Source: Emiliania huxleyi CCMP1516 (Eukaryota). From it: 64,000 nucleotides of DNA. A program made the position numbers and the translations under genes. The DNA lies in the NCBI RefSeq assembly GCF_000372725.1, contig NW_005202427.1, forward strand, positions 801,581 through 865,580, in the 5' to 3' direction. This document shows, piece by piece, positions 191-47,256 of this stretch. The notes under the pieces are model-generated. The model ran no database searches. It was not told the DNA's origin and worked only from the letters and a program-made list of their open reading frames with translations. Position 1 is the stretch's first letter. Each line of letters opens with the position of its first letter.

Positions 191-1835
191 CCCGAGACAC
201 TCACACACACATGATGCCCAAATGGGCATGCTAAATTGGCAGACGCCGATACGCCGCGCGGGGCGCGCGCGCAGTCGGCGTGGGCTAGCCGGTCATAGCA
301 AAATCTCGCCAGCTTGCAGCTCGACGAGAGAGAGAGAGAGAGAGACTTAGCGCGTTGTTTTGTTTGTTTTTGCAGCTCGTGCGCGAAGATACAGGTAATG
401 TCTTGGAAAGTGAGTGGGTCCAAAAGGCCGCGGATCATACTCCCCACCCAGCAATCAACAAAGGTGTGCCATGGCGCTGCCAAGCTCTCGCCCTCTCTCG
501 CCGCTTGGCGGGGAGTTGGGGCTCTCTCACTCCCACCGGGCGAAGCGTGCCACTCGGCCGCGGGCCTCGCCCCACATATCTCGCCATCTCGCCTCGGCAC
601 AAGTCGCGCACGGCACTCGCTCACTCGGCGTCAGCATCACCTCTTGATGCTCCTGCTCCTGCCCGCCGCGAGCCACGCCCGCCACACACGACCGCGCCCG
701 ACTGTGGGGCCCGAGTGCCTCGCATTGCACATCTCGCCTTCCGCCCGATCTCTCGCCTCGCCCCTCGCCGCCGGACCCTCGTTCGCGGCTTTGACGCCTC
801 CACCACACTCTCCTGCAGGTACATCGACCGCAATGAGGGCGCATCGCACCTTCGTATAGATCTACCCAGTAGATCTGCCATGGACACCGCGACCCCCCCT
901 TCCCAGCCCTTCTCCCCACCTCATCTTCGGCTTCTCGTCACCTTCGACGCTATACTGGGCTTGGCGCGGCCCCCGCGCGCGCGGCGCACAACCAAACCTC
1001 GTGGTCGCCAAGAACCGGCGGCGCGCTCCAGAGCTGCTTGGCCCGCTCGACGATTCAGCAAGGAGTACGACGAAGGCCCGCCTCCCCTACCCCGCTCGAT
1101 CCTGCCCTTCCCCCTTCCGCCCTCTCCCGTCTCCCTCTTGCCCGCCGCGGCCGCCCCCCGTCCACAAGAACCAATTCCGCGCCGCCGCCCGTGAGCCGCG
1201 CCGCCCTCACATGCTGTGTGATATCCACCCCCCCGCGGCAGCGCCCTCCAGCCGCACACCGCCACCTCTCTGCCTCGAGACGGCGCCCATGACATGGATG
1301 ATTTGACAGTGCCCACACATCACCACCACCACCACCGCCACTATGGCCGCCGCCACCATCTTCCCTCACAGGTCGCGTGACTGGGCACGGGAGGCCGCCG
1401 CTGCCCTCGCTGGCACCGCCCCTTCGTCGCCGCCCAGGCCGCCGCCTCCGTCGCTGCCACCGCCGCCGCCGCCGCCGCGGCGGCGCCGCCGCCGCCGCCG
1501 CAATCCGCCGCCTCTGAGCCCCGTCTCCTGTGTAGCGCAGGACGCGTCGCGTCTGGACATTGCTCCCCCTCCCACACTCGCCCCTCCTCTCACATGATCA
1601 GACCCCCCTAGCCGTTTGCACGCACATCTGGCATCGTATGCAATGCAATCAGCCCGATTCGCCTGACGGCGCCCCACGCACCCAACGCGCTCAGGTCTAC
1701 AACCAACATGGCCATCAAGCAGGCATATACCCTCGCGCTCGGCCGCGCCCTCACCTCGCCCTCGCGCCATCTTCGCTTTCCCACGCGCTGGCCGCAATCA
1801 CGCGCCGGCGCCCCTTTGCCCGCTCACAGGTCCGC

Positions 1836-2719
1836 ATGCTCTTCCTCGTGGCGGCCGTGTCCGCCTTCGCGCCGATCGACCCGGGCGCCACGTGCGGCGT
1901 CGATGGCATCGACGAAACCGTCGAGAACGACGAGTATCACCACTCCTTCCACGCGGGCTACCGCACCTGCGCATCAGGCTTGCACGCTACCGCGTTCGGC
2001 GAATCTTCCGTAGCCTCGGGCGCAGACGCCACTGCGGCCGGAAAAGACACCGTTGCGTCGGGTAACCAATCGACAGCGACCGGCCACGGGACGGTGGCTT
2101 CGGGCACGGCCTCCACCGCGATGGGGAGGTCTACCGAAGCAAGCGGTAAGCACCGCCCACACCGAGGCCACTCCCAGACCCTCGCGCGACCGCGCTCCCA
2201 TCACCCCGTCCCCGCCCCCCCCCCGCCACCCTGCCCACACAGGCGGCTCCTCCCTGGCGACGGGCTACAACACCAAGGCGACGAACGACCGCTCCACCGC
2301 AATGGGGAGCGAAACCGAAGCAAGCGGTAAGCACCGCCCACACCGAGGCCACTTCCCGACCCTCGCGCGACCCCGCTCCCATCACCCCGCCCCCCCTTCC
2401 GCCCTGCCCATACAGGCTACATCTCGCTGGCGACGGGTAAGGAAACCAAGGCGACGGGCCAGTACTCCACCGCAATGGGGCTCGAAACCAAGGCGACGGG
2501 CGCATCCTCCACCGCAATGGGGCTCGACACCGAAGCAAGCGGTAAGCGCCGCCCACACCAAGGCCACACCCCGACCCTCGCGCGGCCGCGCTCCCATCAC
2601 CCCGGTCCCCGCCCCCCCCCACCCTGCTCACACAGGCTTAACCTCCCTGGCGACGGGCTACTACACCAAGGCGACGGGCACCCACTCCACCGCGATGGGG
2701 AAGTCTACCGAAGCAAGCG
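1836..2719 (+). CDS. Secreted YadA-like head (Hep_Hag) repeat protein, 3' incomplete; exons 1836-2145, 2243-2326, 2416-2541, 2636-2719
   Basis: Short hydrophobic N-terminus MLFLVAAVSAFAP, then 14-aa repeats ASGxxSTAMGxxTx. GTAAGC...ACAG introns; internal exons of 84/126/84 nt are multiples of 42 nt. Runs into an N gap. Confidence 0.8.
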
Positions 2720-3127
2720 GTAAGCACCGCCCACACCGAGGCGACACCCAGAGCCTCGTGGGGCTGCGCTCCTATCATCACGCCGCCCCCCCAAGGCAAT
2801 TTATGAAGGGTCTACTTTGAGCACGCGGGGGGGAGCCATAGTCCCCCGTGGACCACTCCGCCAGACGGCTTCTGGCTCGCGATCGGACAGCCCAGTTGTN
2901 NNNNNNNNNNNNNNNNNNNNNNNNNNNNNNNNNNNNNNNNNNNNNNNNNNNNNNNNNNNNNNNNNNNNNNNNNNNNNNNNNNNNNNNNNNNNNNNNNNNN
3001 NNNNNNNNNNNNNNNNNNNNNNNNNNNNNNNNNNNNNNNNNNNNNNNNNNNNNNNNNNNNNNNNNNNNNNNNNNNNNNNNNNNNNNNNNNNNNNNNNNNN
3101 NNNNNNNNNNNNNNNNNNNNNNNNNNN

Positions 3128-3744: not shown

Positions 3745-4149
<405 letters not shown>

Positions 4150-29451: not shown

Positions 29452-29762
<311 letters not shown>

Positions 29763-31493: not shown

Positions 31494-32809
31494 ATGGAGG
31501 ACGCTGGCGAGGACGCTGGCATTCGCTGGCACGGCGCGGTGGCGTCGCACTTCCCGCCCGCCTTCCGCGCCTTTCTCGAAGCGAACGGCGTGCACGCCGA
31601 CAACTACTCCGTGGAGGACGTTCCGCGCTACATCCGCGTCAACCCGCGCTCGGCGCTCACGCAGGAGGAGGTGGAGCGGCAGCTGCCGCGGAGCGAGCCG
31701 GTCGGCTGGCTGCCCGGCTACTACAGGCTACCGGCCGACGTCAAGATTGCCGCCTGCGACGCCTACCGGCGCGGCGACCTCTACGGGATCGACCTCGCCT
31801 CGGGCGCGGCGGTGGCGGCTCTGGGCGTGCTGCCGGGCGAGGCAGTGCTCGACATGTGCTGCGCGCCGGGCGCAAAGCTCTGTGCGCCAGCGCGTGCGCC
31901 GAACAGGTCACCTCCCAGCTCGGAGGTGACCATCGATTCCGGCGAGCTTTAGGCGCGCTGGCAGACGCGCTGCAGCTGAGCGGCTCGGTGACGGGAGTCG
32001 ACGTCAGCGAGGAGCGGCTGGCTAGAAGCTGGAATACGTCTTCATGTCTCCCAACCAGCACTCGAGAGGACACGGATTCAGCCGCATTCCGCTGTATTCC
32101 GCTGTGTTCCGCTGTATTCACTGTATTCTTCTCCGTTGTGTTCACGCGGTGCTCTGAAGGCGCAACACAGTTACCGTACTCACGCCCTCATGTCAGCGTA
32201 TTCACAGCGTAGGAGCGGCTTGCTGCGGCCAGGACGCTGTGCCGCAAGTACGGCATCACGAACGCGCGCCTCTACCTCGCAGACGCGACCGCCTTTGCGG
32301 AGCCGCCGCCACTCACCCTCCCCTCCTCCGACGAAGACACTCTCACGAGGGACGCCGCTCCGGCCGCCGCCTCCGCCTCCGCCTCCTCCGCCGTTGCTCC
32401 GGCCGCCGCCTCCGCCTCCGCCTCCTCCGCCGTTGCTCCGGCCGCCTCCTCCGCCTCCGCCTCCTCCGCCGTTGCTCCGGCCGCCGCCTCCGCCTCCGCC
32501 TCCTCCGCCGTTGCTCCGGCCGCCGCCTCCGCCTCCGCCTCCTCCGCCGTTGCTCCGGCCGCCGCCTCCGCCTCCGCCACCTCGACCGCCGCTCCGGCCG
32601 CCGCCTCCGCCTCCGCCTCCTCCGCCGTTGCTCCAGCCGTCTCCGCCGCCTCCGCCACCTCGACCGCCGCTCCGGCCGCCGCCTCCGCCTCCGCCGCCGC
32701 TCCAGCCGCCGCCGCTCCAGCCGCCGCCGTGGATCCGCCGGAGAGCGGCAACGCTGCCGACGGCGCCGCTGTCACCGCTGCGCCCGCCGCATCGCCGCCT
32801 CGAGTAGCT

Positions 32810-32844
<35 letters not shown>

Positions 32845-34173
32845 AGCAGCTAGAGGTGGAGGTGGTGGAGGTGGAGGTGGAGGTGGAGGAGGAGGTGGTG
32901 GTGGTGGTGGTGGTGGAGGAGGTGGTGGGCGGCGGCGCAAGCGCCGGCAGCGAGCTGAAGGCAGCCTCGCCCCTTCGGCGTGCCGCCGCGTCGCCGCTCC
33001 GCCCCGACCCTCTCTCCTCCCCAGCCGCAGGAGCGCCAGCCTTCCTGGGCAAGCGGCTCGCGCGGGCGGCGGCCCTGGCGGAGCGCGCCGCCGCGAGAGG
33101 AGGCTGCTTGGGCGACGCGGCGGCGTGCGGCCAGCTGGGCGGGCGGCAAGGAAGGCTGTACGACAAGGTCTTTGGTGCCCACACCGCTCACCCACGCGCG
33201 CTGGGCCTTGCACGTTGAATGCCGTGCGGCTCCTGTCGTCTAGACGTGGAGTCGCGAGAGGGTCGCCCACCCCTTGCCCCACCACCTCGTGTGTGTGGAG
33301 AAGTGCACCTTACCTTACCTTAGGTCTTGGTGGACGCCGAGTGCACGCACGACGGCTCCATCAAGCACCTCGCAAAGTTCGCACAGTGGGGCTGGGACAC
33401 TTTCGAGCGGCGAGCGCGCCGCCGCCGCCTCCGAATACCGGGGCCTCTCCCGCGCCGCCGCGAGGAGCCGCCTCCCCTCGCTGTGCGCAGGCGCTTCCTC
33501 GACCCGGAACGGCTGGCGAGCTTGCCGCTGCTGCAGGGCAGGCGAACTTCGGCCTCGGCGAATCTCGGCGAATCTCGGCGAATCTCGGCGAATCTCGGCG
33601 AATCTCAGGCGGCAGGCCGAGCGCCTCCCACCACTCGAGCATCGCGGGGCCCGCGGCCTCTGCCTGGCCGCCCGCCACCTCCGACCCTGCCGCCCGCAGG
33701 CTGCTCCGGGCCGGCTTTCGCCTGCTTCGCCCTGGCGGCGCGCCCTCTCCCCCCGGACGACCCTTCCCTCCCCGCCCCGCCTCTCTTTGCCCTGCCTCTC
33801 TTTGCCTTTGCCCCGCCTCTCTTTGCCTGGCGTCTCTCTTGCCCCGCCTCTCTTTGCCCCGCCTCTCTTTGCCTTTGCCCCGCCTCTCTTTGCCTGGCGT
33901 CTCTCTTGCCCCGCCTCTCCCTCGTCGCGACGCCCTCGCGCTCCGCCGGTGGCAGGTGCTCTCGTCTACTGCACCTGCAGCTTTGCGCGCGCGCAGAACG
34001 AGGACGTTGTCTCGGCCTTCCTCGGCGACGAGCCGGCGGCGAGGCTGGTCGAGGTGGAGTGCCTCGCCGACGCCCCCGCCACGCCGGGGAGCCTGCCCCT
34101 CACGCTGCGCTTCGATCCTCGCCGCTCGCGCACCTCGGCCCTTTTCGTCGCCAAGCTGGAGAGGGTCAGCTGA
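31494..34173 (+). CDS. RsmB/NOP2/NSUN-family RNA m5C methyltransferase, multi-exon
   Basis: RYIRVN, VLDMCCAPGAK, VTGVDVSEERL, LADAT, YDKVLVDAECTHDG, LLRPGG.LVYCTCS...QNEDVV, ALFVAKL. Confidence 0.92.
32012..32212. mobile_element. Introner-like intron (family A) in the NSUN gene, GA-AG
   Basis: Homologous to intron 46054-46208; flanked by direct repeat AGGAGCGGCT(G/T)GCT. Confidence 0.75.
32357..32720 (+). repeat. 39-bp coding minisatellite (APAAASASASSAV)n
   Basis: gctccggccgccgcctccgcctccgcctcctccgccgtt tandem units in the NSUN reading frame. Confidence 0.9.
33168..33323 (+). mobile_element. Intron formed by a LINE 3'-end insertion
   Basis: Interior matches the UTR+(CCTTA)n tail of 4010-4146 and 29624-29762; duplication AGGTCTT(T)GGTG; splicing restores YDK|VLVDAEC. 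Confidence 0.85.
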
Positions 34174-44439: not shown

Positions 44440-47256
44440 ATGGCCTCTTCATCCGGTGGCGCTGCCGCGACTGCCGCTGCGGCTGCCGCTAGGCCGGGCG
44501 CCCAGCTGGCCCAAACGCCCGACGGTCTCACACTTGGCGAGGATTTTCCGTACGTGTGCGAGGTTTTGCGTCCCGCCTCCACCGTCACTGCTCCGCCTCC
44601 TCGGCCGCCGTGTCCGCTGCTGCGCCTGCCACGGCCCGGCCACTGCCCGCGGCCGCGGCCGCGGCCGCGCCCGCCACTCGGGCGGCGGCCGTCCTCCGCT
44701 CACCGCCGCCTTTGCCGGACAGGTCTGCCTCGGTCCCAACCCGTACGTGCGGATGCTCAAGATGCCAAACTCGCGCGAGTGTAAGATCTCGGGCCGGCCG
44801 TACACCGCCTTCCGCTGGAAGCCCGGCTCCGAGGCGCGCTACAAGGAGACCATCGTCGCGGCCGAGGTTGCCATTGCGAAGAACGTCTGCCAGGCGCGGA
44901 CGCCGCCGGCCTCCCCTCCTCCCCTCCTATCCATCTACTTTGGGGTTTTTTGTTCGGCCCTCGTTCTTTTTCCTTTTTTTTTCTTTTGCCCCCCCCCTTT
45001 CCCGGTTTTCTCTTGTTTTTTCTTTCCTTTTTTTTTTCTTGTTCCCTTTCGCCTTTTCTTTTTTTATCCGCCCCTTCTTGTCGCTAATTTTCTCCCTTTT
45101 TTTTTCCCCCCTTATTTTTTCTTCCCCCTCCCCCCTCCTTNNNNNNNNNNNNNNNNNNNNNNNNNNNNNNNNNNNNNNNNNNNNNNNNNNNNNNNNNNNN
45201 NNNNNNNNNNNNNNNNNNNNNNNNNNNNNNNNNNNNNNNNTTGTCCAAGACGGCGAATCAAGCTCACCCCCCCCCCCCCCCCCGGGGGCAGGTCTGCCTC
45301 ATGGACATGGAGTACAACCTGCCTGTGGCGGTCCGCGACCAGCTGACCGGCGCAGGCAAGGGCGGCGAGCGGGGCGTGGGAGGCGAGTGGCTAGTCGCTG
45401 CAGCTAGTCGCTGCAGCTAGTCGCTGCAGCTGGTCGCTGCAGCTGGTCGCTGCAGCTGGTCGCTGCAGCTGGTCGCTGCAACAACCTGCTGTAGCTAGCT
45501 GCCCCCCCTCTGCTCCTCCAGCGAGATCGCGGCGAGATCGCGGCGAGATCGCGGCGAGATCGCGGCCCGCCACGGCGGAGGTGACGCGTGCGTGCGTGCG
45601 TCCCCCCGCCACAGGCGTCCAGATGCCCGGCTCCGACGTCAACAAGGAGTTTTACTGGGAGAACCAGCGCCAGTCTCTCGCGGCGGGCACGCTGCAGGGC
45701 TACCAGGAGCTCAACGCGGGCGGGGGAGCCGCGTCGGTGGGTGCCAACTTCGAGAAGCTGGCACCCTGCGCTCTTCGGGCGGCTGGTGCGTCGGTGGCGG
45801 GCGGCGGCGGGTGAGTCCGCCGGCTGACCGCCTCGTAGGCCGCTCTCTCGCGCAACAACTCGCACACGCCCTACTATGACCGCAACCTGCCGAAGCTCTG
45901 CTCCTTTTGGGCGCCCTCCCGGACCAGCGGGTCGCGTCGCGAGGGCCTACGGGCGCCTCCCTCTCGCTGGAGCGCGCGCCGCTTCTTGTCTGTAGGCGCG
46001 CCAGACTTGCAACCGCGTCGCGAACGGCTCGTGCCCGTACCGCCCCTGCTGCGGCGTGTTATCCTAGAAGCGGGATGCGTGTTCTCGTCTCCCAACCAGC
46101 GCTCGAGAGGACACGGACTCCGCCGTATTCCGCCGTATTCCGCTGTACTCACTGTACTCCTATCCGCTGTGTTCATGCGTTGCTCTGAAGACGCTGCATC
46201 ATACCTAGGCGTGTTTCGCTTCCCCGAGCTGGCGTCCACCCAGCCCGAGCTGCTCTCGACGCTGGTGCGGAAGCTGCATGCGGAGGGGGCGCTCGGCTGC
46301 ATGCGCGACACGTCGGACGAGATGGAGGAGATCCGCGAGGCGCGTCGTCACTCCGTCCAGGAGGATCTCTCTCTCTCTCTCGCTATGAATGATGACGAGG
46401 GAGCGGTGGCGACTCTTAGGCTCTGCGCGATTCGCAGCGCGGCTCGAGGAACGAGGCGATCCGCAACCGCTACCACGGCGCCGAGGGCCGGGCTAGCTCG
46501 CCGCAGAGCACGCGGACATTTGCCGCACGCACGTCCCGGCCCCTTTCCTAGGTACCGAGGGCGGCATGTCGCGGACATGTCGCGGACGTGTCGTGGACAT
46601 GCCGTGGACTGTTCCTAGGTACCGAGGGCGACAAGCTGGCGGCAAAGTACCTCGATAAGGCGCAGAGCATGGCGGCGCTCACTCCGCCCGAGGACCAGGG
46701 CGTCGTCGCGCTCTGGGTGGGCGGCCCCCACCGCCGACAGCACCCCCCCCCCCCCCCCTCTCCCACAGCGCGCGTGAGTGGGCATGTGGTTGCTCGTCTA
46801 GGTTGGCGGCCTCACCGCCGACATCACGCAGCAGGACCTGCGCGACGCCTTCTACGCATACGGCGAGATTGCGGCGGTGCGCAGAGACGAACCACACAGG
46901 CGGACACAGGCGGGTCGTGGCGGAGAGACGGGGGACCGGGCCCGTGCGGTCGTTAGGTGCGGATGAAGCCGGAGCGGCGCTGCGCGCTGATCGAGTACAC
47001 GCTGCGCAAGTCGGCAGAGGAGGCGGCGACGGCGCTGCACCGCCGGCTGGCGATCAAGGGGGCGAGGCTGAAGCTCTGGTGGGCAAAGTCGCAGCAGGCG
47101 GCCGACAACGCCGACGCGCGGAAGTACGTGAGCCAGGCCTACGGTGCGCCGGTGCCCCCGCCGGGCGAGGTTGCCGCCTTTGGAGCGGCCGGCGGCGCGT
47201 CGCTGTACCCGTCGATGAACCCGAGTGCGATGGGCGCGCGGCCCGACGCCAGGTGA
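44440..47256 (+). CDS. RBM22: Pre-mRNA splicing factor RBM22/Slt11-like, ~11 exons
   Basis: FPYVCEVCLGPNPYVRM, FRWKPG, KNVCQVCLMDMEYNLPVAVRD, PYYDRNLPKLCSFW, LTPPEDQ..ALWVGGL (RRM), LKLWWAK, YPSMNP..MGA. Confidence 0.9.
46054..46208. mobile_element. Introner-like intron (family A) in RBM22, GC-AG
   Basis: Homologous to 32012-32212; flanked by GGCGTGTT. Confidence 0.75.

What the first reader, a model, noticed from the sequence alone, without database searches (positions are those of the whole stretch)
33168..33323. A LINE 3' end captured as a spliceosomal intron; its (CCTTA)n tail looks pre-adapted as a 3' splice signal
Seen: the intron interior is the same 3'UTR and tail found intergenically at 3745-4149 and 29452-29762. 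The latter has a 9-bp TSD and 5' truncation, the hallmarks of target-primed reverse transcription. Here the duplication AGGTCTT(T)GGTG supplies the GT donor, the tail ends CCTTAG, and removal restores YDK|VLVDAEC exactly. Known: the branch-point consensus is yUnAy. Inference: CTTAC repeats give branch-like, pyrimidine-rich sequence plus the acceptor, so sense insertions before G are splice-neutral. This would be a retrotransposon-type introner.
Basis: partly seen in the sequence, partly recalled or inferred. Interest (0 to 1): 0.87.

Follow-up and report, generated by a model that had tools for sequence, protein, structure and literature searches.

The report
LINE tail ends becoming new introns
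In a marine alga, the clipped end of a very common repeat, likely a LINE retrotransposon, sits inside a conserved gene and is likely cut out of the RNA as an ordinary intron, and other copies likely made introns in other genes the same way.

Summary
Confirmed. 33168-33323 is a GT..AG segment made of a duplicated target site (AGGTCTT(T)GGTG) plus 144 nt about 90% identical to two other window copies. Removing it restores YDK|VLVDAEC, continuous in 6 of 7 aligned homologues. One of 4 RNA runs joins it exactly; 4 of 4 DNA runs carry the insert. A metagenome copy links the 3' end to an ORF of at least 1,289 aa; its relatives carry LINE endonuclease, RT and RNase H domains. Among 114 distinct copies, 14 end at AG|G, coding flanks are 9 sense to 1 antisense, and 8 other complete copies excise in frame (GT, GC or GA donors; 3 domain-checked, none RNA-checked). 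Corrections: the duplicated AG|G site gives both splice dinucleotides, so a following G is not enough, and the tail looks mainly like a pyrimidine tract. Intron copies are older (median 7 vs 2 differences). Non-LTR introners are already catalogued, one in a haptophyte, so this is a new variant with clear TPRT hallmarks. Main caveat: one relative may have an unrelated intron at or beside this site.

The parts
33168..33323 (+). 156-nt GT-AG phase-0 intron made of duplicated target plus LINE 3' end
   Evidence: RNA joint skips 156, GT..AG; present in 4 of 4 DNA runs
33166..33177 (+). Left target-site duplication AGGTCTT(T)GGTG; supplies AG|GT donor; has one extra T
33178..33303 (+). 5'-truncated 3' UTR of the element (older sequence variant)
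33304..33322 (+). (CCTTA)n tail: likely polypyrimidine tract, candidate branch A at -17 (33307); last A shared with the right TSD
   Evidence: function inferred
33322..33332 (+). Right target-site duplication AGGTCTTGGTG; supplies the acceptor AG and start of next exon
33031..33167 (+). Upstream exon of host gene (...RLYDK)
   Evidence: (RNA record 9 leaves the genome at 33029)
33324..33408 (+). Downstream exon (VLVDAECTHDGSIKHLAKFAQWGWDTFE), conserved motif
31494..34173 (+). Host gene, RsmB/NSUN-type RNA methyltransferase; homologues carry PF01189; boundaries partly inferred
29452..29762 (+). Young 5'-truncated copy (ORF end, (CA)n, 3' UTR, tail) with 9-bp TSD CACCCAAGT
3752..4149 (+). Young 5'-truncated copy, no TSD found
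32012..32212 (+). Predicted host intron 2, made by a second dispersed repeat (element B); 10-bp direct repeat AGGAGCGGCT; GA donor; no RNA test

Best explanation
The 156-nt GT-AG segment is the 5'-truncated 3' end of a very abundant repeat flanked by an 11-bp duplication of the exon; it was likely inserted by LINE target-primed reverse transcription and is likely spliced out exactly, so the gene survives. Steps: (1) Inferred from homology: the parent is a single-ORF LINE (endonuclease, RT, RNase H) ending in (CA)n, a 3' UTR and (CCTTA)n. (2) Shown pattern, inferred mechanism: it makes variably truncated copies with 8-14 bp TSDs. (3) Shown in sequence: when a sense copy lands at exonic AG|G[T/C/A], the left TSD starts with a donor and the right TSD ends the intron with AG, so excision restores the coding sequence base for base. 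(4) Inferred: the tail acts as the polypyrimidine tract, with its first A (-17 to -22) as likely branch point. (5) Inferred, from the literature on the likely host: tolerance of GT, GC and GA donors widens the set of safe sites. (6) Inferred: other exonic insertions are purged, while these persist, so they are older than most other copies.
For: Exact RNA joint 33165->33322, skip 156, GT..AG, in run X12 (depth 21.8, 137 nt on the short side). The same contig leaves the genome at the upstream acceptor, as a spliced RNA would. All 4 DNA runs bridge both junctions with the insert and none shows the joined form. YD[K/R]V[L/I]VDAEC-type motif continuous in 6 of 7 homologues. Of 58 rows with the 5' end inside the contig, 19 distinct copies have a perfect 8-14 bp repeat, after dropping one duplicate and two tail-repeat artefacts; truncation points vary. 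L039 links the 3' end to an ORF of at least 1,289 aa. Its 6 homologues (32-39% identical over the RNase H-like region) carry RVT_1 (3 of 6), Exo_endo_phos (2), RNase_H (2) and SET (1). 14 of 114 distinct junctions are AG|G at the tail end. After tail-A|G the next base is G in 11 of 17 without the window copy, expected 31%, p=0.006. Coding-scored flanks: 9 sense, 1 antisense of 112, p=0.021. Eight other complete copies excise in phase 0. Domain coordinates run on across the junction in L023 (Peptidase_M3 124|127), L071 (DAO_C 101|103) and L106 (6bi4, about 275|274). E. huxleyi donors are GC 56%, GT 40%, GA 4% in curated genes (PMC4028052).
Against: Only 1 of 4 RNA runs shows the joint, and its own DNA was not seen. 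Because of the TSD the spliced form equals an empty allele. X13 has an unspliced contig across the 5' junction. Genomic-looking homologue P0003 leaves the conserved frame right after ...MKYD(A), so an unrelated intron may lie at or within about 2 codons of this site in a relative (protein only, DNA not seen). The element's own RT and endonuclease were not recovered; P0001 itself has only weak Pfam hits (SET E 0.14) and no PDB hit for its RNase H region. Five of the 8 other complete copies have no domain check and none has RNA. The codon classifier is insensitive: the window copy itself scored below threshold.
Confidence: 0.8

Rival explanations
1. Replacement of an older intron. The LINE inserted at the acceptor of a pre-existing YDK|V intron, duplicating AG|GTCTTGGTG, and the old intron body was later lost precisely. 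The sequence is LINE-made but the position is not new.
For: P0003 (71% identical to exon 1) departs from the conserved frame after ...KYD(A) into low-complexity sequence. Several copies sit just upstream of apparent existing acceptors (L018, L038, L056, L073, L080, L112; by eye).
Against: It needs a second, precise deletion. P0003 has a non-basic residue where 6 of 6 others have K/R, so its break may be one codon upstream, and it reads straight through the window's intron 1 and 2 positions. P0005 (longest contig 11,965 bp) is one unbroken ORF through the site. The same TSD-at-donor layout recurs in unrelated genes.
Confidence: 0.12
2. Not spliced. The insert is a disruptive allele or retained intron, and the joined RNA came from a strain with an empty allele.
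For: The joined form equals the empty site. X13 shows an unspliced contig. Intron retention is pervasive in E. huxleyi (PMC4028052).
Against: 4 of 4 DNA runs from 3 studies carry the insert with near-identical flanking exons and no empty allele. The insert is about 10% diverged from young copies while the exons stay intact. Retention would stop translation before a conserved motif.
Confidence: 0.05
3. The intron-type copies are a distinct sublineage that spreads preferentially as introns, for example re-mobilised in trans from intron-containing RNA, rather than old survivors of ordinary insertions.
For: Shared diagnostic states in intron-type copies: GGCC end 9 of 13 vs 0 of 50, GAGTCGCG 6 of 13 vs 0 of 50. 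GGCC vs AG|G Fisher p=5e-8.
Against: They differ from each other as much as from young copies (median 7), vary in length from 70 to 351 nt, and their variants are mosaic. Decay or deletion of old non-intronic copies, plus my exact-match 31-mer filter, could give the same pattern.
Confidence: 0.2

Closest known systems
Non-LTR introners of Gozashti et al. 2025 (PMC12130899), esp. Pavlovales sp. CCMP2436 fam1
   Same: Non-LTR-derived introns are about 5% of confidently classified families. The Pavlovales family is a haptophyte one: 7 copies, GT-AG, 'co-opt 5' carry 3''.
   Different: All 14 non-LTR rows have superfamily 'unknown' and the Pavlovales call rests on weak hits. Here variable 5' truncation, 8-14 bp TSDs, a tandem tail and a linked ORF are all visible, and about 88% of sampled copies do not end at AG|G.
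E. huxleyi CCMP1516 introner families (fam4, fam11, fam24 in PMC12130899; five families in PMC9860276)
   Same: Likely the same or a sister host. fam24 is about 70 bp with '10bp terminal direct repeats' and co-opt 5'/carry 3', like the 70-71 nt copies L023 and L084.
   Different: They are classed Unknown or LTR, not non-LTR, and the 2022 families have 19-308 copies, 74-86% in genes, unlike this mostly non-intronic family. Their sequences were not in the supplements I could search, so identity with fam24 is not excluded.
DNA-transposon introners of Micromonas (IE1) and relatives
   Same: One or both splice sites come from the TSD and excision is exact (PMC11282704).
   Different: Those have TIRs or fixed ends and mostly DNA-based mobility. 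This one has a fixed 3' end only.
LINEs with captured chromatin domains (SymbioLINE-Dnmt, PMC5890265)
   Same: LINE with endonuclease and RT carrying an extra epigenetic domain.
   Different: Here the relatives are single ORFs of up to 4,119 aa with RNase H, chromo, SET and GNAT domains. The clade was not determined.

Membership tests
LINE (non-LTR retrotransposon) | Variable-length TSD | tested here: met
   8-14 bp in 19 distinct copies among 58 rows; 9 and 11 bp in the window
LINE (non-LTR retrotransposon) | Fixed 3' end with simple-repeat tail and variable 5' truncation | tested here: met
LINE (non-LTR retrotransposon) | ORF with endonuclease and reverse transcriptase | tested here: inconclusive
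   Only the C-terminal 1,289 aa were recovered; endonuclease and RT seen only in 32-39% identical homologues
Spliceosomal (U2-type) intron | GT..AG ends, removed exactly from RNA | tested here: met
   One RNA contig in 1 of 4 runs; insert in 4 of 4 DNA runs; no matched DNA and RNA from one strain
Spliceosomal (U2-type) intron | Branch adenosine and lariat | not testable with these tools
   Only conservation of the first tail A, 13 of 14 vs 23 of 43
Introner | Sequence-similar introns at unrelated exonic sites | tested here: met
   8 further complete copies in different genes, 3 with domain continuity; none RNA-checked
Introner | Position is new (absent in relatives) | tested here: inconclusive
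   P0005 is unbroken on a long contig, but P0003 breaks at or beside the site
Introner | Presence/absence polymorphism (recent activity) | tested here: not met
   No empty allele in 4 of 4 DNA runs; intron copies are the older ones. This locus only.
MITE/DNA-transposon introner | Terminal inverted repeats, fixed length and fixed TSD size | tested here: not met
   Lengths 70-351 nt, TSD size varies, tail at one end only; no dedicated TIR search was run

The most novel reading that the evidence does not exclude
An intron-adapted sublineage of a giant RNase H/SET-bearing LINE has been a standing intron factory in coccolithophores. Its tail doubles as the 3' splice signal, the host's GT/GC/GA-tolerant spliceosome makes most AG|G sites safe, intron copies are themselves re-mobilised, and hundreds of the genome's introns are decayed LINE 3' ends missed by introner screens because they vary in length.
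Probability: 0.25. Interest if true: 0.85.

Novelty: new variant of a known kind. Interest (0 to 1): 0.6.

Why it matters
Most described mass intron gains come from DNA transposons, and the listed non-LTR cases are classified by weak homology with no worked-out mechanism. Here the route is readable base by base: TPRT duplicates a protosplice site and the LINE's own tail likely supplies the 3' splice context. It suggests that any LINE with a pyrimidine-rich tail can make introns in hosts with relaxed donors. It also suggests that similarity screens for fixed-length introners undercount this source. If the host is Gephyrocapsa huxleyi, as inferred, cultured strains with long-read genomes and Iso-Seq exist, so the census and splicing tests are directly doable.

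Tried and rejected
No whole genome is held for this window, so no genome-wide count; the census is a metagenome sample of 120 loci found by one exact 31-mer, which favours young copies. Pfam found nothing on four single host exons. GC3 alone could not tell strands apart, so it was replaced by a codon model. The first divergence test was distorted by indels (13 vs 38, p=0.0015) and was redone. No host-gene relative in viral contigs. PDB searches did not confirm RNase H or SET in P0001. The element's own RT and the provenance of P0003 could not be obtained. Four look-ups in earlier scan findings returned nothing. The idea that antisense copies also make introns (the reverse tail reads GTAAGG) was considered: the one antisense coding case, L098, is equally read as the tail giving a stop codon, and its other end is missing, so it is unsupported. 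L069 (unclear flank), L057 (tandem array) and L096 (no acceptor at the tail) were not counted as introns.

Full report
Observation. The segment 33168-33323 is 156 nt, GT..CCTTAG. Its interior matches two other window copies at about 90%. It is bounded by AGGTCTTTGGTG and AGGTCTTGGTG; the 29452-29762 copy has a perfect 9-bp TSD. The third copy starts near 3752 and has no detectable TSD. Excision gives RLYDK|VLVDAECTHDGSIKH; retention gives a stop.

Host. Exon 1 finds 8 homologues with PF01189 (RsmB/NSUN-type methyltransferase); the only named one is from Isochrysis galbana at 69%. Six of the 7 aligned homologues read continuously through the YD[K/R]VLVDAEC-type motif. GC of 58-73% per 2 kb, this affinity and GC/GA donors point to Gephyrocapsa (Emiliania) huxleyi or a close relative. 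This is inferred: no genome is held, and the GGCGAATCTC intron repeat as a marker of that species is recalled, not tested.

Splicing. Of 20 runs listed I laid 4 RNA and 4 DNA-type runs. RNA run X12 has one contig (depth 21.8) joining 33165 to 33322, skip 156, GT..AG. The contig carries 108 further letters that leave the genome at 33029, the upstream acceptor, as spliced RNA would. X13 has an unspliced contig across the 5' junction with 12 differences; X11 and X14 show no joint. All 4 DNA runs, from 3 studies, have contigs running from each exon into the insert and no joined form. Because the TSD makes spliced RNA identical to an empty allele and X12's DNA was not seen, splicing is very likely but not formally shown. 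Summed contig depth over the element's 3' part is about 10,000 times the flank in all four runs. The tool warns this is no copy number, but it marks a very abundant family.

The element. One exact 31-mer gave 120 metagenome loci, about 210 estimated. Of 58 rows with the 5' end inside the contig, 19 distinct copies have a perfect 8-14 bp repeat (one duplicate and two tail artefacts dropped; 6-7 bp hits ignored as chance), with widely varying truncation. L039 holds 4 kb upstream: one ORF of at least 1,289 aa ending just before the (CA)n tract, whose last codons match those in both other window copies. P0001 has only weak Pfam hits and no useful PDB hit. Its six homologues at 32-39% include a 4,119-aa protein with RVT_1, SET and GNAT, and others with Exo_endo_phos, RVT_1, RNase_H or Chromo, always N-terminal to or overlapping the matched region. 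So the parent is a LINE by hallmarks and homology; its own RT was not recovered and the clade is undetermined.

Is it repeated? After dropping 3 duplicates and 6 short flanks, 114 of 123 junctions remain; 14 end at AG|G, including the window copy. After tail-A|G the next base is G in 11 of 17 without the window copy (expected 31%, p=0.006). A codon model trained on six window ORF stretches put 10 of 112 flanks above the 99% null: 9 sense, 1 antisense (p=0.021). Seven of the 9 have an AG|G acceptor at or within 7 nt of the tail end. The model is insensitive and missed the window copy. Eight other copies with both ends visible excise in phase 0: GT donors L068 (351 nt), L106 (147), L115 (220); GC donors L014 (169), L071 (153), L079 (164), L084 (71); GA donor L023 (70). 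Profile coordinates continue across the junction for L023, L071 and L106. The other five had no informative hit, and none has RNA support. These loci come from a few assemblies and may be one population.

Mechanism details. In 8 of the 9 complete cases the target already reads AG|G, so both dinucleotides come from the duplicated site. The tail's last A overlaps the TSD, consistent with microhomology-primed TPRT (established knowledge, recalled). Only in L068 (ATG|G) does the tail give the A. In 14 intron-type copies the first tail A is kept in 13, internal As in 23 of 43, against 292 of 314 in other copies (Fisher p=0.01 for first vs internal; units are not independent). This fits a pyrimidine tract with one branch candidate. 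Curated E. huxleyi junctions use GC 56%, GT 40% and GA 4% (PMC4028052, passages), matching the donor mix here. Intron-type copies differ from a young copy by a median of 7 vs 2 changes over about 52 nt (13 vs 49 copies, p=6e-8) and share states absent from the other 50. They are older survivors or a separate sublineage; these data cannot separate the two.

Against. Homologue P0003 (longest contig 5,900 bp) reads through the window's intron 1 and 2 positions but leaves the conserved frame after ...MKYD(A) into low-complexity sequence. I infer an unrelated intron at, or one to two codons from, this site. P0005 is unbroken on a 12-kb contig, the tree does not resolve P0003's place, and the left TSD sits directly on coding sequence, which is simplest if the target was intronless.

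Known work. Gozashti 2025 (PMC12130899; passages, section 6, supplement searches; file 13 not searched) reports non-LTR elements as about 5% of classified introners. Its 14 non-LTR rows include a haptophyte family with co-opted 5' and carried 3' sites; the three E. huxleyi families are classed Unknown or LTR. Gozashti 2022 (PMC9860276; abstract, passages, one supplement cut when stored) lists five E. huxleyi families, mostly genic. Family sequences were not in what I could search, so overlap with fam24 is not excluded. Nine searches (listings seen) found no description of this family or of a LINE tail used as a 3' splice signal; the library lacks most subscription papers and Repbase.

Verdict. 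Real, and a LINE-made intron with about 80% confidence. The family has likely done this repeatedly. The category is known but this TPRT-resolved, tail-as-pyrimidine-tract form in a donor-tolerant host is a new variant. Interest 0.6.

Noticed in passing
window 32012-32212 (+); also 46064-46194, L043, L021, L051, L068, L110, L115: A second dispersed repeat (element B) fills predicted intron 2 of the same gene with a 10-bp direct repeat and a GA donor. In L051, L068 and L110 it is fused directly upstream of the LINE 3' end, a possible SINE-like chimera.
   Followed up: partly
L039:1612-5481 (-), P0001; homologue P0002: The parent ORF carries a weak SET-like domain after the RNase H-like region. 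P0002 (4,119 aa) has RT, two SET stretches and GNAT by Pfam; by eye (recalled motifs, untested) also a cytosine-methyltransferase-like and an ASCH-like segment.
   Followed up: partly
window 33409-33489 (+): An in-frame 81-nt GC-AG segment is skipped in RNA run X13 but retained in X12.
   Followed up: partly
window 33304-33322 (-); L098: The reverse strand of the tail reads (TAAGG)n, containing GTAAG donor-like words and TAA stops. One antisense copy abuts the end of a WWE domain.
   Followed up: partly
L018, L038, L056, L073, L080, L112: Sense copies whose tail runs into what looks like an existing acceptor 10-35 nt downstream, seen by eye.
   Followed up: no
L057: The last about 35 nt of the element are tandemly repeated three times, each unit ending CCTTAG|G.
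   Followed up: no
window 1536-2820 (+): A gene with repeated Gly/Ala/Thr-rich ATG...ASG units, each interrupted by near-identical introns starting GTAAGCACCGCCCACACC, apparently from intragenic tandem duplication.
   Followed up: no
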